24,982 bases of DNA from a virus (taxonomy: Duplodnaviria; Heunggongvirae; Uroviricota; Caudoviricetes), in IMG/VR virus record IMGVR_UViG_2551306526_000003; one strand, written 5' to 3'. Within the stretch, counting starts at the first letter, position 1; the number at the start of each line of letters is the position of its first letter. The notes beneath the pieces are model-generated. The model did not search any database, had not been told where the DNA came from, and was given only the letters and a program-made list of their open reading frames with translations. Positions 1,331 to 7,296 of the stretch are shown in pieces. The translations under genes and the position numbers were made by a program.

Positions 1331-1345
1331 GCTTTTTTATACTAA
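1331..1345. other. attL: attL core (B-O-P') of lambda-type prophage; 15-bp common core GCTTTTTTATACTAA with bacterial B arm to the left and phage P' arm (about 1346-1418) to the right
   Basis: Exact lambda att core; right flank GTTGGCATTATAAAAAAGCATTGCTTATCAATTTGTTGCAACGAACAGGTCACTATCAGTCAAAATAAAATCATTATTTGATTTC matches the lambda P' arm running into the int 3' end; left flank is ybhC-proximal host DNA. Confidence 0.9.
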
Positions 1346-1418
1346 GTTGGCATTATAAAAAAGCATTGCTTATCAATTTGTTGCAACGAACAGGTCACTA
1401 TCAGTCAAAATAAAATCA

Positions 1419-2489
1419 TTATTTGATTTCAATTTTGTCCCACTCCCTGCCTCTGTCATCACGATACTGTGATGCCATGGTGTCCGACTTATGCCCGAGA
1501 AGATGTTGAGCAAACTTATCGCTTATCTGCTTCTCATAGAGTCTTGCAGACAAACTGCGCAACTCGTGAAAGGTAGGCGGATCCCCTTCGAAGGAAAGAC
1601 CTGATGCTTTTCGTGCGCGCATAAAATACCTTGATACTGTGCCGGATGAAAGCGGTTCGCGACGAGTAGATGCAATTATGGTTTCTCCGCCAAGAATCTC
1701 TTTGCATTTATCAAGTGTTTCCTTCATTGATATTCCGAGAGCATCAACATGCAATGCTGTTGGGATGGCAATTTTTACGCCTGTTTTGCTTTGCTCGACA
1801 TAAAGATATCCATCTACGATATCAGACCACTTCATTTCGCATAAATCACCAACTCGCTGCCCGGTAACAACAGCCAGTTCCATTGCAAGTCTAAGCCAAC
1901 ATGGTGATGATTCTGCTGCTTGATAAATTTTCAGGTATTCGTCAGCCGTAAGTCTTGATCTCCTTACCTCTGATTTTGCAGCGCGAGTGGCTGCGACCGG
2001 GTTTGTTGTTATATGGCCTTCAGCTATAGCCTCTCGGAATGCATCGCTCAGTGTTGATCTGATTAACTTGGCTGATGCCGCCTTGCCCTCGTCTATGTAT
2101 CCATTGAGCATTGCCGCAATTTCTTTTGTGGTGATGTCTTCAAGTGGAGCATCAGGCAGACCCCTCCTTATTGCTTTAATTTTGCTCATGTAATTTATGA
2201 GTGTCTTCTGCTTGATTCCTCTGCTGGCCAGGATTTTTTCGTAGCGATCAAGCCATGAATGTAACGTAACGGAATTATCACTGTTGATTCTCGCTGTCAG
2301 AGGCTTGTGTTTGTGTCCTGAAAATAACTCAATGTTGGCCTGTATAGCTTCAGTGATTGCGATTCGCCTGTCTCGGCCTAATCCAAACTCTTTACCCGTC
2401 CTTGGGTCCCTGTAGCAGTAATATCCATTGTTTCTTATATAAAGGTTAGGGGGTAAATCCCGGCGCTCATGACTTCGCCTTCTTCCCAT
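1419..2489 (-). CDS. int: Lambda integrase (tyrosine recombinase), 356 aa
   Basis: Protein MGRRRSHERRDLPPNLYIRNNGYYCYRDPRTGKEFGLGRD... essentially identical to lambda Int as I recall it; correct length and position next to the P' arm. Confidence 0.95.
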   Translation of the reverse strand: MGRRRSHERRDLPPNLYIRNNGYYCYRDPRTGKEFGLGRDRRIAITEAIQANIELFSGHKHKPLTARINSDNSVTLHSWLDRYEKILASRGIKQKTLINYMSKIKAIRRGLPDAPLEDITTKEIAAMLNGYIDEGKAASAKLIRSTLSDAFREAIAEGHITTNPVAATRAAKSEVRRSRLTADEYLKIYQAAESSPCWLRLAMELAVVTGQRVGDLCEMKWSDIVDGYLYVEQSKTGVKIAIPTALHVDALGISMKETLDKCKEILGGETIIASTRREPLSSGTVSRYFMRARKASGLSFEGDPPTFHELRSLSARLYEKQISDKFAQHLLGHKSDTMASQYRDDRGREWDKIEIK

Positions 2490-2685
2490 TTCTGATCCTC
2501 TTCAAAAGGCTACCTGTTACTGGTCGATTTAAGTCAACCTTTACCGCTGATTCGTGGAACAGATACTCTCTTCCATCCTTAACCGGAGGAGGGAATATCC
2601 TGCACTCGCGTACCCATCGACGAACTGTTTCAAGGCTTCTTGGGCGTCGCTGGCGTGCGTTCCACTCCTGAAGTGTCAAGTACAT
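2467..2685 (-). CDS. xis: Lambda excisionase, 72 aa; overlaps int start by 23 bp as in lambda
   Basis: MYLTLQEWNARQRRPRSLETVRRWVRECRIFPPPVKDGREYLF... matches lambda Xis; canonical xis-int overlap. Confidence 0.9.
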   Translation of the reverse strand: MYLTLQEWNARQRRPRSLETVRRWVRECRIFPPPVKDGREYLFHESAVKVDLNRPVTGSLLKRIRNGKKAKS

Positions 2686-3068
2686 CGCAAAGTCTCCGCA
2701 ATTACACGCAAGAAAAAACCGCCATCAGGCGGCTTGGTGTTCTTTCAGTTCTTCAATTCGAATATTGGTTACGTCTGCATGTGCTATCTGCGCCCACAGC
2801 ATCCAGTGGTCATAGCAGTCGCTGATGTTCTCGGCTTCGATAACTCTGTTGAATGGTTCTCCATTCCATTCACCTGTAACTCGGAAGTGCATTTATCATC
2901 GCCATAAAACAAAACTCGCCGTAGCGAGTTCAGATAAAAGAAATCCCCGCGAGTGCGAGGATAGTTACTTGTTCATATTATTAATCGTCAATGTATTTTG
3001 AGCATTGTGGGCAATCATCGATCCCACAATACGATTCATATGCATCCTTTATTGCGTCGCGGGCTTCA

Positions 3069-3073
3069 GTAAG
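3069..3073. repeat. Left copy of the 5-bp target-site duplication GTAAG flanking IS2
   Basis: Identical pentamer directly abutting both IS2 termini (3069-3073 and 4404-4408). Confidence 0.85.
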
Positions 3074-3164
3074 TAGACTGGCCCCCTGAATCTCCAGACA
3101 ACCAGTATCACTTAAATAAGTGATAGTCTTAATACTAGTTTTTAGACTAGTCATTGGAGAACAG

Positions 3165-3529
3165 ATGATTGATGTCTTAGGGCCGGAGAAACGCAGACGG
3201 CGTACCACACAGGAAAAGATCGCATTGTTCAGCAGAGCTTTGAACCGGGGATGACGGTCTCCCTCGTTGCCCGGCAACATGGTGTAGCAGCCAGCCAGTT
3301 ATTTCTCTGGCGTAAGCAATACCAGGAAGGAAGTCTTACTGCTGTCGCCGCCGGAGAACAGGTTGTTCCTGCCTCTGAACTTGCTGCCGCCATGAAGCAG
3401 ATTAAAGAACTCCAGCGCCTGCTCGGCAAGAAAACGATGGAAAATGAACTCCTCAAAGAAGCCGTTGAATATGGACGGGCAAAAAAGTGGATAGCGCACG
3501 CGCCCTTATTGCCCGGGGATGGGGAGTAA
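3165..3529 (+). pseudogene. insC: IS2 orfA (insC) with an apparent 1-nt deletion: the first 29 codons (ATG 3165, [20 protein letters not shown]...) run into TGA at 3252-3254, while the remaining 92 codons (3251-3529) are in another frame
   Basis: 29 + 92 = 121 aa, the full InsC length, but the two parts are in different frames. I recall the canonical sequence as ATCGCAATTGTT where the window has atcgcattgtt (about 3219-3229). Confidence 0.6.
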
Positions 3530-4392
3530 GCTTAGTCAGCCGTTGTCTCCGGGTGTCGCGTGCGCAGTTGCACGTCATTCTCAGACGAACCGATGACTGG
3601 ATGGATGGCCGCCGCAGTCGTCACACTGATGATACGGATGTGCTTCTCCGTATACACCATGTTATCGGAGAGCTGCCCACGTATGGTTATCGTCGGGTAT
3701 GGGCGCTGCTTCGCAGACAGGCAGAACTTGATGGTATGCCTGCGATCAATGCCAAACGTGTTTACCGGATCATGCGCCAGAATGCGCTGTTGCTTGAGCG
3801 AAAACCTGCTGTACCGCCATCGAAACGGGCACATACAGGCAGAGTGGCCGTGAAAGAAAGCAATCAGCGATGGTGCTCTGACGGGTTCGAGTTCTGCTGT
3901 GATAACGGAGAGAGACTGCGTGTCACGTTCGCGCTGGACTGCTGTGATCGTGAGGCACTGCACTGGGCGGTCACTACCGGCGGCTTCAACAGTGAAACAG
4001 TACAGGACGTCATGCTGGGAGCGGTGGAACGCCGCTTCGGCAACGATCTTCCGTCGTCTCCAGTGGAGTGGCTGACGGATAATGGTTCATGCTACCGGGC
4101 TAATGAAACACGCCAGTTCGCCCGGATGTTGGGACTTGAACCGAAGAACACGGCGGTGCGGAGTCCGGAGAGTAACGGAATAGCAGAGAGCTTCGTGAAA
4201 ACGATAAAGCGTGACTACATCAGTATCATGCCCAAACCAGACGGGTTAACGGCAGCAAAGAACCTTGCAGAGGCGTTCGAGCATTATAACGAATGGCATC
4301 CGCATAGTGCGCTGGGTTATCGCTCGCCACGGGAATATCTGCGGCAGCGGGCTTGTAATGGGTTAAGTGATAACAGATGTCTGGAAATATAG
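3487..4392 (+). CDS. insD: IS2 transposase orfB (InsD), 301 aa in the -1 frame; A6G slippery heptamer a-aaa-aag at 3481-3487 for the programmed -1 frameshift that makes the InsCD fusion
   Basis: Track [26 protein letters not shown]... matches IS2 InsD; ends with the DDE region and ...[29 protein letters not shown]. Confidence 0.9.
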
Positions 4393-4403
4393 GGGCAAAT
4401 CCA

Positions 4404-4408
4404 GTAAG
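4404..4408. repeat. Right copy of the 5-bp target-site duplication GTAAG flanking IS2
   Basis: See left copy. Confidence 0.85.
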
Positions 4409-4711
4409 AGTATTGAATAAGTTGCAGCTATTATCTTTTTGATATAGGTAAGTTCCTAATTTATAAGCAGAAGAAGCATCATTTCCGCTGTCTAAAATTA
4501 CATCGTTATGGATTCTGCACCTTGCAAGAACTCCTGATCCCATAAGGGTCTGCATAGCCCATTGCTCTTGATCTTCACACAAATCATGAATGCTCATTTC
4601 AACACCTCTCTTCACGTTTCACACACGTTAAGATTAACAGTGTTTTTACATGCTTTGGGAGATTTATTTTATAAAAACTCTTTTAATACAAATAGATATA
4701 ATAGTTCACTA

Positions 4712-5509
4712 TTATAGCTCCTTTAATCGAGGCGGTTCTGGTAGAGGCATCCAGTGGGTTACACCGCCAATTGGCTCATCGTCGTCGTACTCCAATGCGG
4801 CTATATAGAACCCGTCACGACGAGAATAAGAAATCCCGGACATTACAATGCCATCCGAAACAACAATAATGTCACCCGTTTCTTTCGGCATTCGCTCACT
4901 ACAGCTTATCCAACCATCCGGAGTCACCGGAAGCGAGAACGGCAGCACATCTCTGTGAACAAGTTTTTGCTGTGACAGGTTATCCAGAACTTTCTGTACT
5001 GCTGCATCACCGAATACACCAAGCGCATCTGCCATAACTCCTACAACCTGATAAGCCTCAGCGCATACCGTGGATAAACCATCCGGAATTACCGGAGAGT
5101 TGCCGGGTTCTTTAATGTGCAAGCGAGGCTCACCATCTTTTGGTTCAGGCCACTGGCGCTCCATGTTGATCTTCAATTTATCTTCCATAGCAGCGGTAAT
5201 TTCAGCATCGCTGATGCCAGCACGGCGCTGTGCATCCCACAACAGGAAATGCATATCAGCCCACTCGCTGAGATCGTCTGGTTCGGCTGCGGCTTCCAGA
5301 GCCTCTTTTGAGAGGTGTTTCAGTGGACCAATGGGGCCAACGCAGCCAAATGTGGAGTCAGACCATTTGGCATGCTCGTGGCGAATCAGTTCGCGTTCCA
5401 GTGATGCCAGTGCAATTCGTGCCAGTTCCATTTGTTCGCCACGAGTAAGCCCGTTTTCAAGCGGATTTTTAATGAACAATTCAATACGTTCTTTGGTAAT
5501 AGTGGTCAT
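4712..5509 (-). CDS. Accessory phage protein, 265 aa: N-terminal MazG-like all-alpha NTP pyrophosphohydrolase domain (DUF550, dATP/dGTP diphosphohydrolase-type) plus C-terminal DUF551-like domain
   Basis: ATG with SD AAGGA; segment KEALEAAAEPDDLSEWADMHFLLWDAQRRAG resembles the MazG-family EExxE/D-containing helix pair; architecture typical of lambdoid early-left cargo. Family names from memory, not searched. Confidence 0.55.
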   Translation of the reverse strand: MTTITKERIELFIKNPLENGLTRGEQMELARIALASLERELIRHEHAKWSDSTFGCVGPIGPLKHLSKEALEAAAEPDDLSEWADMHFLLWDAQRRAGISDAEITAAMEDKLKINMERQWPEPKDGEPRLHIKEPGNSPVIPDGLSTVCAEAYQVVGVMADALGVFGDAAVQKVLDNLSQQKLVHRDVLPFSLPVTPDGWISCSERMPKETGDIIVVSDGIVMSGISYSRRDGFYIAALEYDDDEPIGGVTHWMPLPEPPRLKEL

Positions 5510-5519
5510 TTGTTAGTCC

Positions 5520-6275
5520 TTAAACTGCTAGTTGCAATTGCATTTCAAAGCGGTCGCGTTGTTCACAATACGCAAGAGAACCAGGGCTATTGTGTGCCTC
5601 AATCCGTTCTACCATTAATGCTGCGCGTGTCTCTTTACTTGCAGGTGCATAAGCCCCAGACCAGGCTTTATCAATACCGATGTTTCGAGCGACGTTCGTA
5701 CTATCTGCGCTGGCTAAGGGTAATTTTGTGAATATCAGCGGATTTAACATGCGCAATCCATGTAGTTTCGTAACCGGCTGACCATGCCCATCAACAATGT
5801 GACGAATCAGGTCTTTCATTCTGGCTACCGCAAGAGTTGGGCGCTTTACGTCATAGTCGCCACAACTACCGATAGCCACTCGCGGAAACTCATTGCACAA
5901 ATGAATAAATCGCGCGTCACTTTCATTCATGTGCCACACTGGAACGCCAGCTAGTTTTCCGTGAGGCCACTCATTCAGAAGCGCATCATTTTCCTCCTCT
6001 CCGCCATCAATAATATCCGGGATAATGGCAAAATCGAATCCTGGGTGATTCTTCCAGCGAGCAACAAACTCGTAGTAATCGCTCCAGTCGATTTTGTTTT
6101 TGCCAGCTGCTTTCCAGGCGGTGAATGCACCGTTGTCCAGCGCGAACGACTGACAGTATTCAGCCGCGAGATTGATCTGGCCTGAATGCGCAAAACTGAT
6201 AAACGCATGTCGCCCTTTCCATGCTCTCATTGCGCACGTATCAGGAGTAATAGGCCCACCGTGGTAGTGAATCAT
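5520..6275 (-). CDS. Hypothetical enzyme with a TGT-like (tRNA-guanine transglycosylase / DpdA-like) motif pattern; 251 aa from the SD-preceded ATG at 6275 (track ORF extends to 6317)
   Basis: Strong SD AAGGAGAGTGAG-ATG at 6275, 1 nt after the upstream gene stop. Motifs (numbered from 6275): LD47NGAF vs Tgt TDSGGFQ; D81FAIIPD87 vs DIVMIFD; LHGLRM vs YLMGVG; SAD191STNVARN vs FDCVMPTRNARN, with compatible spacing. No CxCxxC...H zinc site. Motif-level only. Confidence 0.4.
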   Translation of the reverse strand: MIHYHGGPITPDTCAMRAWKGRHAFISFAHSGQINLAAEYCQSFALDNGAFTAWKAAGKNKIDWSDYYEFVARWKNHPGFDFAIIPDIIDGGEEENDALLNEWPHGKLAGVPVWHMNESDARFIHLCNEFPRVAIGSCGDYDVKRPTLAVARMKDLIRHIVDGHGQPVTKLHGLRMLNPLIFTKLPLASADSTNVARNIGIDKAWSGAYAPASKETRAALMVERIEAHNSPGSLAYCEQRDRFEMQLQLAV

Positions 6276-6276
6276 C

Positions 6277-6684
6277 TCACTCTCCTTTGATGCGAATGCC
6301 AGTAGCGCGGATTGCATCGATGACTTCAGAAACTTTGTATGCCATTACCGTTTGGTAATCATCGTGAAAATCTGTTCGATGAAGCATGCTGCTACGTTCC
6401 GGGAGCAGTATTTCCCGCGCTTCCAGTTCTGCAATGCGCTTTTTTGCTGCTTCCAGTTCATCCAGTAATTCCAGCACGGTAGCCGGATTAGCCTTGGCAA
6501 CAAAATCCCGGACTGGCTTACAATCAATCTCCGCAATGGGTTGATTCGATGTGTAGCCATGCTGTCTTGTATAACTACCGTGACGAATAACGAAAAAATC
6601 ACCATTTATTTTTTTAGCCTGCCACTTATCTTCACCGGCTTTCTCTGCCGCTTCACGCAGTGCCTGAGAGTTAATTTCGCTCAC
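6277..6684 (-). CDS. Ead/Ea22-like family protein, 135 aa, GTG start, coiled-coil segment
   Basis: Segment ANPATVLELLDELEAAKKRIAELEAR typical of Ea22-like proteins; GTGA start/stop overlap with the upstream gene; SD GAGAGG. Confidence 0.5.
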   Translation of the reverse strand: MSEINSQALREAAEKAGEDKWQAKKINGDFFVIRHGSYTRQHGYTSNQPIAEIDCKPVRDFVAKANPATVLELLDELEAAKKRIAELEAREILLPERSSMLHRTDFHDDYQTVMAYKVSEVIDAIRATGIRIKGE

Positions 6685-6902
6685 TTCGAACCTCTCTGTT
6701 TACTGATAAGCTCCAGATCCTCCTGGCAACTTGCACAAGTCCGACAACCCTGAACGACCAGGCGTCTTCGTTCATCTATCGGATCGCCACACTCACAACA
6801 ATGAGTGGCAGATACAGTCTGGTAGTTCAGACGACGCATTTTTATTGCTGTGTTGCGCTGTAATTCTTCAATTTCTGATGCTGAATCAATGATGTCTGCC
6901 AT
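6681..6902 (-). CDS. TraR/DksA-family C4-type zinc-finger protein, 73 aa
   Basis: Cys cluster THCCECGDPIDERRRLVVQGCRTCASC (CxxC ... CxxC) and size typical of phage TraR homologues. Confidence 0.75.
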   Translation of the reverse strand: MADIIDSASEIEELQRNTAIKMRRLNYQTVSATHCCECGDPIDERRRLVVQGCRTCASCQEDLELISKQRGSK

Positions 6903-6950
6903 CTTCCATTAATCCCTGAATTGTTGGTTAATACGCTTGAGGGTGAATGC

Positions 6951-6978
6951 GAATAATAAAAAAGGAGCCTGTAGCTCC
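6951..6978 (-). terminator. Intrinsic terminator on the minus strand (stem GGAGC/GCTCC, then U-tract) inside the leftward pL-type operon; candidate tL-type site
   Basis: Hairpin ggagc-ctgta-gctcc at 6964-6978; plus-strand A-run 6951-6963 gives UUUUUUAUUAUUC on the leftward transcript. Confidence 0.5.
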
Positions 6979-7000
6979 CTGATGATTTTGCTTTTCATGT

Positions 7001-7216
7001 TCATCGTTCCTTAAAGACGCCGTTTAACATGCCGATTGCCAGGCTTAAATGAGTCGGTGTGAATCCCATCAGCGTTACCGTTTCGCGGTGCTTCTTCAGT
7101 ACGCTACGGCAAATGTCATCGACGTTTTTATCCGGAAACTGCTGTCTGGCTTTTTTGATTTCAGAATTAGCCTGACGGGCAATGCTGCGAAGGGCGTTTT
7201 CCTGCTGAGGTGTCAT
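7001..7216 (-). CDS. Hypothetical early-left protein, 71 aa (MTPQQENALRSIARQANSEIKK...); track ORF runs to 7282, but the shorter start at 7216 is preferred because of ATGA coupling
   Basis: In the position of lambda orf61; the ATG at 7216 overlaps the stop of the small ORF 7213-7296. Confidence 0.5.
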   Translation of the reverse strand: MTPQQENALRSIARQANSEIKKARQQFPDKNVDDICRSVLKKHRETVTLMGFTPTHLSLAIGMLNGVFKER

Positions 7217-7296
7217 TGAACAAGTCCCATGTCGGCAAGCATAAGCACACAGAATATGAAGCCCGCTGCCAGAAAAATGCATTCAGTGGTTGTCAT
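7213..7296 (-). CDS. Candidate small hydrophobic single-TM peptide, 27 aa ([27 protein letters not shown]), translationally coupled on both sides
   Basis: ATG at 7296-7294 overlaps the TGA of the upstream ORF (7293-7295); its own TGA (7215-7213) overlaps the ATG of the 71-aa ORF; strongly hydrophobic core. Below the track size cut-off. Confidence 0.35.
   Translation of the reverse strand: MTTTECIFLAAGFIFCVLMLADMGLVQ

What the first reader, a model, noticed from the sequence alone, without database searches (positions are those of the whole stretch)
4712..6902. Four-gene translationally coupled accessory operon replaces lambda ea22
The order is TraR-like zinc finger (6681-6902), Ea22-like (6277-6684), TGT-like (5520-6275), DUF550/551 (4712-5509), with start/stop overlaps GTGA at 6681-6684, a 1-nt gap at 6276, and a 10-nt gap with SD at 5510-5519. 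The xis-to-exo interval is about 1.35 kb longer than in lambda by my recollection of the map, and lambda ea22 (182 aa) is absent. Early-left regions are known hotspots for anti-defence and host-takeover cargo.
Basis: partly seen in the sequence, partly recalled or inferred. Interest (0 to 1): 0.55.

Follow-up and report, generated by a model that had tools for sequence, protein, structure and literature searches.

The report
Lambda exo-xis region with lone DpdA
The four tightly packed genes are real, but two are phage lambda's own genes (orf73 and a variant of ea22), and the true extra cargo is a predicted DNA-modifying enzyme of a catalogued family plus a nucleotide-hydrolase fusion, so this is an ordinary mosaic variant of a well-studied variable region.

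Summary
The geometry is confirmed: four minus-strand ORFs at 6681-6902, 6277-6684, 5520-6275 and 4712-5509, with a GTGA overlap, a 1-nt gap and a 10-nt gap carrying a Shine-Dalgarno sequence. The domain calls are also right.

- **Lambda genes:** Lambda has the TraR-like gene (orf73, 70/73 aa identical) with the same GTGA overlap; NC_001416 simply does not annotate it. The Ea22-like ORF sits in ea22's slot and keeps lambda's first 14 and last 7 codons, so ea22 is a shorter allele, not absent.
- **True insert:** The addition is two genes. One is a compact TGT-superfamily protein, 92% identical to published phage "singleton DpdA" entries. The other is an EaA-type DUF550-DUF551 protein.
- **Interval length:** The xis-exo interval is 1350 bp longer than lambda only after removing an IS2 copy.
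- **Not a fixed unit:** Neighbours of the DpdA-like gene vary widely in 80 related loci, and DNA methyltransferases are adjacent in 20.

The DpdA-like enzyme most likely swaps guanine in DNA for a host-made 7-deazaguanine as anti-restriction. This is inferred, not shown. The prophage here is defective (no pL, N or cI; bet truncated), so expression is doubtful.

The parts
6681..6902 (-). orf73, a TraR/DksA-family zinc-finger protein. It is lambda's own exo-xis core gene, not cargo.
   Evidence: Pfam zf-dskA_traR E 4e-9 and PHROG 54 E 2.5e-25. 70/73 aa identical to the unannotated lambda ORF at 30392-30613. Inside the 97.4% lambda-collinear block 6643-8513. Lambda Orf73 binds RNA polymerase and inhibits rRNA promoters (PMC9239242).
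6277..6684 (-). Ea22 allele (135 aa) in ea22's position. It has lambda-identical ends and an exchanged middle, and its GTG start overlaps the orf73 stop (GTGA).
   Evidence: Pfam Ead_Ea22 E 3e-17. The first 14 aa and the last 7 aa (GIRIKGE) are identical to lambda Ea22. Window 6643-6684 and 6274-6302 match lambda 30354-30395 and 29844-29872.
5520..6275 (-). Compact (251 aa) TGT-superfamily protein of the phage 'singleton DpdA' group, a predicted DNA guanine/7-deazaguanine transglycosylase.
4712..5509 (-). EaA-type fusion protein (265 aa): a 38-aa N-terminal module, a DUF550 domain (PF04447, MazZ-like dATP/dGTP pyrophosphohydrolase), a linker and a DUF551 domain.
   Evidence: PF04447 E 1.1e-41 (residues 42-137) and DUF551 E 7e-14 (residues 199-260). 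48% identical to BTP1 EaA over the DUF550 part only. RefSeq splits this ORF into a 234-aa gene plus an N-terminal pseudogene stub.
5510..5519 (-). 10-nt intercistronic spacer. The Shine-Dalgarno-like AAGGA overlaps the DpdA-like stop codon.
   Evidence: Read directly from the sequence. The same 10-nt spacing between DpdA and EaA occurs in BTP1 and SPN3UB.
6274..6302 (-). Mosaic junction: the last lambda-identical 29 bp (ea22 3' codons, stop, and up to the AT of the next start codon). It also holds the Shine-Dalgarno sequence for the DpdA-like gene.
   Evidence: 100% match to lambda 29844-29872. AAAGGAGAG lies 7 nt before the ATG.
6962..6980 (-). Intrinsic-terminator-like hairpin with a T-run between orf61 and orf73, inherited from lambda.
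   Evidence: Pattern scan only. It lies inside the lambda-collinear block. Function not tested.
4409..4615 (-). 5' part of an ea8.5-like gene, the downstream boundary of the insert, interrupted by IS2. The 3' part is at 2981-3073.
   Evidence: Pfam Lambda_ea8_5 E 1e-7. Removing 3074-4408 restores a 99-aa ORF ending in the lambda-like C-terminus. Lambda homology resumes at 3027.
3074..4403 (+). IS2 copy (1330 bp) with the 5-bp target duplication GTAAG at 3069-3073 and 4404-4408.
   Evidence: Inverted repeats, sequence ends and duplication, and the RefSeq annotation of the near-identical APEC O78 locus.
7001..8320 (-). Upstream lambda core genes: orf61-like (7001-7282), orf63/orf60a (7293-7649) and exo (7640-8320).
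   Evidence: 97.4% collinear with lambda. Pfam DUF1382 and DUF1317. RefSeq annotation.

Best explanation
This is the xis-proximal part of the exo-xis (early-left, pL-driven) region of a lambda-type prophage integrated at the lambda attachment site of an APEC O78-like E. coli.

Two of the four genes are lambda's own conserved core. The first is orf73, a TraR-like protein that binds RNA polymerase and turns down rRNA and ribosomal-protein promoters. The second is ea22, present as a shorter allele made by recombination inside the gene.

The real addition relative to lambda is a two-gene mosaic insert placed exactly at the ea22 stop codon. The first gene encodes a compact TGT-fold enzyme of the phage 'singleton DpdA' group. 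It most likely excises guanine from double-stranded DNA through a covalent Asp-ribose intermediate (candidate nucleophile D191 paired with H172; D47 and D87 reading the base). It would then insert a 7-deazaguanine made by the host queuosine pathway (preQ0 or its amide ADG). The expected result is sparse marks that protect phage DNA from restriction, much like the orphan DNA methyltransferases that often sit next to its relatives. The second gene encodes an EaA-type protein whose DUF550 domain is a MazG/MazZ-like (d)NTP pyrophosphohydrolase.

In an intact phage all of these genes would be read on the N-antiterminated pL transcript, and the overlaps and short gaps allow translational coupling. 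They are independent, exchangeable modules rather than one four-part machine. In this window the prophage is defective, so the genes are probably poorly expressed or silent.

Shown here: gene structure, homology, mosaic boundaries, neighbour variability and purifying selection across species. Inferred: the enzymatic activity, its substrate, its anti-restriction role, co-transcription and translational coupling.
For: Geometry.

Collinearity with lambda and mosaic junctions at gene boundaries.

Literature: the exo-xis core of orf60a-orf63-orf61-orf73-ea22 with a variable ea22-xis segment is described in PMC8614690. Orf73 function was shown in PMC9239242.

DpdA assignment:
- PHROG 887, E 2.6e-101.
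- Pairwise homology to MED16 DpdA (E 2e-43) and to the genetically proven CAjan DpdA (E 7e-9), with LDNGAF aligned to LDSGAF, KLHG to KLHA and ADSTN to CDSSS.
- 92% identity to SPN3UB and BTP1 proteins, both listed as DpdA in Hutinet 2019.
- Candidate catalytic residues are invariant in 24 homologues down to 65% identity.
- dN/dS of 0.022.

Link to DNA modification: DNA methyltransferases of three unrelated Pfam families are the immediate same-strand neighbour in 20 of 80 loci. A QueD-like gene abuts a 39%-identical homologue in Caulobacter phage DMCA. Two phages carrying homologues 35-39% identical to the window protein, 7-11 and MED16, carry low-level dADG, at 0.02% and 0.13% of G (PMC6884629, PMC8306585).

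DUF550 domain: PF04447 E 1e-41. dGTP/dATP pyrophosphohydrolase activity was shown for a DUF5664-DUF550 fusion in a Z-genome phage (PMC12884076).

Modularity.

Defective prophage.
Against: No member of this >=65%-identity clade has been tested biochemically. I found no paper doing so.

The protein has no Pfam TGT, NCBIfam or PADLOC hit and no PDB sequence hit. It lacks the TGT CxCxxC...H zinc motif. CAjan DpdA also has no Pfam hit, so the missing Pfam hit does not discriminate.

The singleton DpdA phage Orion showed no modification, and the levels in 7-11 and MED16 were too low to block the restriction enzymes tested (PMC6884629, PMC8306585).

The methyltransferase adjacency has no background control. 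Co-transcription and coupling are inferred from spacing only.
Confidence: 0.7

Rival explanations
1. One reading: the four genes form one dedicated, co-evolved, translationally coupled accessory or anti-defence operon that has displaced lambda ea22.
For: Tight spacing and overlaps. The exact four-gene layout recurs in 84 of 5426 complete E. coli genomes and in one Stx1a phage record. The location is a known accessory hotspot (PMC8614690).
Against: orf73 and both ends of ea22 are lambda sequence at about 97% identity, and the GTGA overlap already exists in lambda. The DpdA-like gene occurs in 201 genomes against 84 with the full layout. Neighbours vary across 80 loci. IAI1 lacks the DUF550/551 gene, and SPN3UB lacks both orf73 and Ea22 next to DpdA. 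Many of the 84 genomes are 100% identical, so the count partly reflects clonal descent.
Confidence: 0.08
2. The TGT-like protein is a tRNA-guanine transglycosylase, as its PHROG and RefSeq-phage name says. It would alter the queuosine status of host or phage tRNAs to tune translation.
Against: At 251 aa it lacks the zinc subdomain and C-terminal parts of TGT, and it has no Pfam TGT hit even at E 10. It is measurably similar to DNA-acting DpdAs. DNA methyltransferases are frequent immediate neighbours. The annotation name is transferred, not tested.
Confidence: 0.1
3. The TGT-like protein works like CBASS Cap10. It would handle a 7-deazaguanine attached to a protein or other non-DNA molecule, for example to interfere with type IV CBASS or QatABCD-type defences.
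Confidence: 0.05
4. In this particular genome the cassette is a silent relic. The ORFs are intact only because the prophage decayed recently, and they do nothing for the host.
For: The prophage lacks N, pL, cI and the replication genes, since ral is followed directly by a quuD fragment and a porin gene. bet is truncated and gam deleted. IS2 disrupts the neighbouring ea8.5-like gene. Terminator-like hairpins lie between the only promoter-like site upstream (9812-9783) and the cassette.
Against: All four ORFs are intact. A near-consensus promoter-like site (11 of 12 positions) lies upstream of ral on the correct strand. Expression was not measured. This reading concerns this copy only and does not conflict with the functional assignment of the genes.
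Confidence: 0.4

Closest known systems
Bacteriophage lambda exo-xis region (orf60a-orf63-orf61-orf73-ea22 core, then ea8.5 and orf55)
   Same: Same position, strand and order. There is 97% nucleotide identity over exo-orf60a-orf63-orf61-orf73 and over both ends of ea22, and the same GTGA overlap between orf73 and ea22.
   Different: The central part of ea22 is exchanged (135 aa against 182 aa). Two extra genes lie between ea22 and ea8.5. The ea8.5 gene is a variant allele split by IS2.
Phage 'singleton DpdA' group (Hutinet et al. 2019, group 3: BTP1, SPN3UB, SfI, HK106, SEN1, 7-11; also MED16 gp38)
   Same: 92% aa identity to the BTP1 and SPN3UB entries, 67% to SfI, and 35-39% to 7-11 and MED16. 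There are no preQ0 synthesis genes nearby. The hosts make preQ0.
   Different: None in kind. This copy sits in a lambda-type rather than a P22-type or SPN3UB-type context. No member this close has been tested; only the distant 7-11 and MED16 have mass-spectrometry data.
DpdA1 of Escherichia phages CAjan and 9g (proven DNA preQ0 insertase)
   Same: Detectable homology (25% identity over 153 aa, E 7e-9) with aligned LDxGAF, KLH and DS motifs. The TIM-barrel TGT fold is shared.
   Different: CAjan DpdA is 306 aa and lies in a FolE-QueD-QueE-QueC cluster of a lytic phage that replaces about 32% of its G (PMC6884629). Here the gene is alone in a temperate phage.
Cap10 of type IV CBASS (PDB 9NTN)
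   Different: Identity is 11%. Cap10 binds a deazaguanylated CD-NTase and needs Cap9, and neither partner is present here.
MazZ / DUF550 (d)GTP-(d)ATP pyrophosphohydrolases of 2-aminoadenine (Z-genome) phages
   Same: The same Pfam domain, PF04447, is matched over its full length with E 1e-41.
   Different: There is no PurZ, DatZ or DpoZ context. Here the domain is fused to DUF551 and belongs to the widespread lambdoid and P22 EaA family, whose role is unknown.
F-plasmid TraR / lambda Orf73
   Same: It is 70/73 aa identical to lambda Orf73, and the C4 zinc finger is present.
   Different: Nothing material.

Membership tests
DpdA (DNA 7-deazaguanine transglycosylase, phage subfamilies) | Significant sequence similarity to an experimentally validated DpdA | tested here: met
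   BLASTP against CAjan DpdA gives E 7e-9 with 25% identity over 153 aa. Against MED16 DpdA it gives E 2e-43. SPN3UB YP_007011024 is 92% identical and is listed as DpdA in Hutinet 2019.
DpdA (DNA 7-deazaguanine transglycosylase, phage subfamilies) | TGT-type (beta/alpha)8 barrel fold | tested here: met
DpdA (DNA 7-deazaguanine transglycosylase, phage subfamilies) | Conserved catalytic Asp nucleophile, base-recognition Asp residues and the conserved His | tested here: met
   D47 (LDNGAF), D87, H172 (KLHG) and D191 (ADSTN) are invariant in 24 homologues. They align with LDSGAF, KLHA and CDSSS of CAjan DpdA. Assigning roles by analogy with Cap10 and TGT is inference.
DpdA (DNA 7-deazaguanine transglycosylase, phage subfamilies) | Inserts a 7-deazaguanine base into DNA | not testable with these tools
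   This needs LC-MS/MS of DNA. Only distant relatives (7-11, MED16) are associated with dADG, and only at low levels (PMC6884629, PMC8306585).
DpdA (DNA 7-deazaguanine transglycosylase, phage subfamilies) | Linked preQ0/G+ biosynthesis genes (FolE, QueD, QueE, QueC), which define the cluster-type DpdA1 rather than the singleton group | tested here: not met
   None are annotated anywhere in the prophage or among the immediate neighbours in 80 loci. This places the gene in the 'singleton' group. One distant homologue abuts a QueD-like gene.
Canonical tRNA-guanine transglycosylase (Pfam PF01702 TGT) | Match to the Pfam TGT model | tested here: not met
   No Pfam hit even at E 10. No NCBIfam hit.
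Canonical tRNA-guanine transglycosylase (Pfam PF01702 TGT) | CxCxxC...H zinc-binding subdomain | tested here: not met
   The protein ends at residue 251, and no such motif appears in its sequence.
Lambda exo-xis core gene orf73 (TraR family) | About 73 aa with a C4 zinc finger, orthologous position between orf61 and ea22 | tested here: met
Ead/Ea22 family | Pfam PF13935 match and position downstream of orf73 | tested here: met
   E 2.9e-17 against a cutoff of 27 bits, with a score of 64 bits. It shares its termini with lambda Ea22.
DUF550 / MazZ-like dATP-dGTP pyrophosphohydrolase (PF04447) | Full-length domain match above the gathering score | tested here: met
   141 bits against a cutoff of 23, covering profile positions 1-96 of 97.
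DUF550 / MazZ-like dATP-dGTP pyrophosphohydrolase (PF04447) | dGTP/dATP to dNMP plus PPi activity | not testable with these tools
   The activity is shown only for a DUF5664-DUF550 fusion of an Acinetobacter Z-genome phage (PMC12884076).
Known anti-phage defence systems (PADLOC) | Match to any PADLOC model | tested here: not met
   No hits for any of the four proteins.

The most novel reading that the evidence does not exclude
The lone DpdA of lambdoid and P22-like prophages may not be a bulk DNA modifier. One possibility is that it writes sparse, site-specific dADG or dPreQ0 marks from host queuosine intermediates, mimicking the 'self' mark of bacterial Dpd restriction systems. The other is that it acts, like Cap10, on a protein-linked deazaguanine to disarm type IV CBASS or Qat-type defences. 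Under the first possibility the adjacent MazZ-like DUF550 enzyme might adjust the purine nucleotide pool in its support.
Probability: 0.12. Interest if true: 0.6.

Novelty: already known. Interest (0 to 1): 0.22.

Why it matters
As found, it matters little. [quoted passage not shown]

Its residual value is as a convenient test bed. A lone DpdA sits in a genetically tractable lambda backbone, and 201 of 5426 complete E. coli genomes carry this allele. That makes the open question raised by Hutinet et al. 2019 directly testable: do singleton DpdAs modify DNA using host precursors, and what do they protect against?

It also shows that the RefSeq lambda record's missing orf73 annotation can mislead comparisons made from memory.

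Tried and rejected
- **Sequence searches of the TGT-like protein:** Pfam, NCBIfam and PADLOC gave no hits. This is uninformative, because the proven CAjan DpdA also has no Pfam hit.
- **PDB by sequence:** phmmer and a family profile returned nothing meaningful.
- **Obligatory DpdA-DUF550 partnership:** considered and rejected. The pair occurs in lambda-type, P22-type and SPN3UB contexts, but only within the clade whose DpdA is at least about 90% identical. IAI1 keeps DpdA without DUF550/551. Pieces of the 2401-bp query that includes DUF550/551 match in 4155 genomes, against 204 for the DpdA-like gene.
- **Longer 265-aa start for the TGT-like ORF (ATG at 6317):** considered and rejected, because homologues uniformly begin MIHYHGGP.
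- **Literature on lone DpdA in temperate enterobacterial phages:** searches found no experimental test.
- **Rfam:** no RNA family in the cassette; the only hit in the window is the lambda cIII thermoregulator.
- **Profile search of 1.84 billion representatives:** it sized the family (1525 clusters at E <= 1e-3, mostly about 250 aa) but added no functional information.
Full report
**1. The observation**

The four minus-strand ORFs are present at the stated coordinates. Reading the minus strand:
- The TraR-like ORF ends with TGA at 6683-6681, and the next ORF starts with GTG at 6684-6682, giving a GTGA overlap.
- That ORF ends with TGA at 6279-6277. G6276 follows, then ATG at 6275-6273, with AAAGGAGAG 7 nt upstream.
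- The third ORF ends with TAA at 5522-5520. Ten nucleotides follow, then ATG at 5509, with AAGGA overlapping the stop codon.

The domain assignments also hold:

| ORF | Match | E-value |
|---|---|---|
| 6681-6902 | zf-dskA_traR | 4e-9 |
| 6277-6684 | Ead_Ea22 | 3e-17 |
| 5520-6275 | PHROG 887 'queuine tRNA-ribosyltransferase' | 2.6e-101 |
| 4712-5509 | PF04447 dATP/dGTP pyrophosphohydrolase (former DUF550) | 1e-41 |
| 4712-5509 | DUF551 | 7e-14 |

An in-frame upstream ATG at 6317 would extend the third ORF, but homologues uniformly begin MIHYHGGP. The start at 6275 is therefore correct.

**2. Where the window comes from**

The first 19 kb of the window match E. coli APEC O78 at 99.99%. The element is a lambda-type prophage next to ybhC, at the lambda attachment site. 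It is defective:
- After ral come a quuD fragment and a porin gene, so N, pL, cI, cro, O and P are missing.
- bet is truncated and gam is deleted. The junction is at window 8512/8513, corresponding to lambda 32221/33180.
- An IS2 copy at 3074-4403, with target duplication GTAAG, splits an ea8.5-like gene.

**3. Comparison with lambda**

blastn gives these collinear blocks:

| Window | Lambda | Content |
|---|---|---|
| 1331-3027 | 27724-29420 | att core, int, xis, orf55, 3' end of ea8.5 |
| 6274-6302 | 29844-29872 | last codons and stop of ea22, up to 'AT' of the next start codon (100% identical) |
| 6643-8513 | 30354-32221 | first 42 nt of ea22, the 'gap' between ea22 and orf61, orf61, orf63, orf60a, exo, 3' end of bet (97.4%) |

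The gap between ea22 and orf61 is not empty. Lambda 30392-30613 encodes an intact 73-aa protein that is 70/73 identical to the window's TraR-like ORF. This is lambda Orf73, which the NC_001416 record does not annotate. It is well characterised as a TraR homologue that binds RNA polymerase, inhibits rRNA and ribosomal-protein promoters, and raises burst size (PMC9239242).

The Ea22-like ORF shares its first 14 residues and its last 7 residues (GIRIKGE) with lambda Ea22. It is therefore an ea22 allele with an exchanged middle, 135 aa against 182 aa.

The literature already describes orf60a-orf63-orf61-orf73-ea22 as the conserved core of the exo-xis region. It describes the ea22-xis segment as variable and mosaic, especially in Stx phages (PMC8614690).

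The interval is 4954 bp; subtracting 1335 bp leaves 3619 bp, against 2269 bp in lambda, a difference of +1350 bp. That excess comes from two inserted genes and a slightly longer ea8.5 allele, partly offset by the shorter ea22 allele. It does not come from a four-gene replacement of ea22.

**4. The TGT-like protein**

It has no Pfam, NCBIfam, PADLOC or PDB sequence hit. The genetically proven DpdA of phage CAjan also has no Pfam hit, so this absence does not discriminate.

Direct comparisons show homology to known DpdAs:

| Comparator | Identity | E-value |
|---|---|---|
| MED16 DpdA gp38 | 39% | 2e-43 |
| CAjan DpdA | 25% over 153 aa | 7e-9 |
| Salmonella phage 7-11 | 35% | 5e-16 |
| BTP1, SPN3UB | 92% | about 1e-150 |
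| SfI | 67% | 5e-104 |

In the CAjan alignment, LDNGAF pairs with LDSGAF, KLHG with KLHA, and ADSTN with CDSSS. The SPN3UB protein YP_007011024 and the BTP1, SfI, HK106 and SEN1 proteins are all listed as DpdA in Supplementary Data 1 of Hutinet et al. 2019. [quoted passage not shown]

D47, N48, D87, H172 and D191 are invariant across 24 homologues down to 65% identity. Their order and spacing parallel Cap10's base-reading D73/S74/D122 and catalytic H226/D248 (bioRxiv 10.1101/2025.04.06.647259). Mapping the roles residue by residue is inference.

The family is large. At least 7710 clusters at 90% identity match, and 1525 representatives at 50% identity match, mostly about 250 aa. It is under strong purifying selection, with dN/dS of 0.022 between the E. 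coli and Salmonella alleles.

**5. Is the cassette a unit?**

No. I examined 80 IMG/VR loci that encode relatives. An Ea22-family gene lies upstream in 20 of them and an EaA/D550N-family gene lies downstream in 21. Almost all of these are loci where the DpdA-like protein is at least about 90% identical. Elsewhere the neighbours belong to dozens of unrelated families.

Specific examples show the same thing:
- E. coli IAI1 carries a more complete prophage at the same site. It has orf73, the Ea22 allele and DpdA, but a DnaJ-like gene and others in place of DUF550/551. Only a 40-codon stub of the downstream gene remains.
- BTP1, a P22-type phage, has Ea22-like, DpdA and EaA.
- SPN3UB has DpdA and Eaa after its replication genes, in a different operon.

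In complete E. coli genomes, the DpdA-like allele occurs in 201 of 5426 and the exact four-gene layout in 84. Pieces of the 2401-bp query spanning the four genes and flanks match in 4155.

The most informative association is with DNA methyltransferases. A DNA methyltransferase from one of three unrelated families is the immediate same-strand neighbour in 20 of 80 loci: a C5-MTase/Dam fusion, MT-A70, and D12-class N6-MTase. In Caulobacter phage DMCA a QueD-like gene abuts a 39%-identical homologue. Both observations fit a role in DNA modification, although I have no background frequency for comparison.

**6. Mechanism**

The best-supported reading runs as follows. In an intact phage these genes lie on the N-antiterminated pL transcript, as the exo-xis genes do (PMC8614690). 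The overlaps and short gaps permit translational coupling.
- Orf73 reprograms host transcription. This has been shown for lambda.
- Ea22 has an unknown biochemical role and is reported to favour lysogeny.
- The DpdA-like enzyme exchanges guanine in DNA for a host-made 7-deazaguanine. This is inferred. E. coli makes preQ0 for queuosine, which is established knowledge.
- The DUF550 domain hydrolyses (d)NTPs to (d)NMP and PPi. This is inferred from a tested Z-genome phage fusion (PMC12884076).

The expected modification level is low. The only data come from distant singleton relatives. Phage 7-11 had dADG at 0.02% of G and MED16 at 0.13% of G. Neither level blocked the restriction enzymes tested. 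Mycobacteriophage Orion, whose host lacks preQ0 synthesis, had none (PMC6884629, PMC8306585). The anti-restriction benefit is therefore plausible but unproven.

Rival readings are less well supported. They are a tRNA-acting TGT, a Cap10-like enzyme acting on a protein conjugate, and a dedicated four-gene system; each is set out in the rivals section.

For this copy specifically, pL and N are lost. Terminator-like hairpins also lie between the only upstream promoter-like site (9812-9783) and the cassette. Low or no expression is therefore likely, though it was not measured.

**7. Novelty and verdict**

Every component belongs to a described family. Proteins 92% identical to the TGT-like one are already catalogued as singleton DpdA. 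The region is a known mosaic hotspot. The exact layout is present and annotated in dozens of RefSeq genomes.

The finding is ordinary. What remains open, and is already flagged in the literature, is what lone DpdAs do in temperate phages. This lambda-backbone copy would be a convenient system for testing that.

Noticed in passing
window 3074-4403 (target duplications at 3069-3073 and 4404-4408): An IS2 copy is inserted in an ea8.5-like gene, with the 5-bp target duplication GTAAG. Removing it restores a 99-aa ORF. Compared with the APEC O78 copy, the window lacks one A at about 3223, which frameshifts the first transposase ORF (InsC). This is either a dead IS copy or a sequencing error.
   Followed up: partly
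window 8512-8513: A 958-bp deletion relative to lambda (lambda 32222-33179) removes the 5' part of bet and all of gam, joining the bet 3' end to kil. RefSeq annotates bet as a pseudogene in the matching APEC O78 locus.
   Followed up: partly
window 9733-11217: Lambda homology ends just past ral and orf28. It is followed by a quuD fragment and an ompC/nmpC-like porin gene, so the whole N-immunity-replication-nin region is missing. The E. coli IAI1 prophage at the same site still has it.
   Followed up: partly
window 7489-7499: A run of nine C's, with a 1-nt indel relative to APEC O78 (extra C reported at window 7499) and a different sequence in lambda, puts orf60a (DUF1317) and orf63 (DUF1382) into one 118-aa ORF at 7293-7649. 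In lambda and APEC O78 they are two overlapping genes. This could be a homopolymer sequencing error or slippage.
   Followed up: partly
window 6962-6980, minus strand: A terminator-like hairpin followed by TTTTATTATT lies between orf61 and orf73, within lambda-identical sequence. It would split the exo-xis genes into two groups in the absence of N antitermination.
   Followed up: no
window 9783-9812, minus strand: A near-consensus sigma-70 promoter-like site (GTGACA, 18-nt spacer, TATAAT; 11 of 12 positions) lies in non-lambda sequence just upstream of ral, after the porin gene's terminator-like hairpin at 9980-9997. It could give residual leftward transcription in this pL-less prophage.
   Followed up: no
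window 8750-8808, minus strand: The lambda cIII thermoregulator RNA element (Rfam RF01804, 88.5 bits) is intact. It was the only Rfam hit in the window.
   Followed up: yes
L001 (lambda NC_001416) 2893-3114, equal to lambda 30392-30613: The RefSeq lambda record does not annotate orf73, although the ORF is intact and experimentally characterised.
   Followed up: yes
IMG/VR loci L027, L034, L036, L047, L048, L052, L055, L059, L060, L064, L071, L072, L074, L075, L079-L084: DNA methyltransferases of three unrelated Pfam families (a C5 DNA_methylase fused to Dam, MT-A70, and D12 N6-MTase) are the immediate same-strand neighbours of DpdA-like genes in 20 of 80 loci. In Caulobacter phage DMCA (L088 4705-5726) a QueD-like gene abuts a DpdA-like gene.
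   Followed up: partly
window 5396-5509; L085 13853-13990: The first 38 or so codons of the gene downstream of DpdA travel with DpdA, while the rest of that gene varies: DUF550+DUF551, DUF551 alone, or nothing. In IAI1 only the stub remains and is annotated as a pseudogene. The recombination joint therefore lies inside the downstream gene, not between genes.
   Followed up: partly
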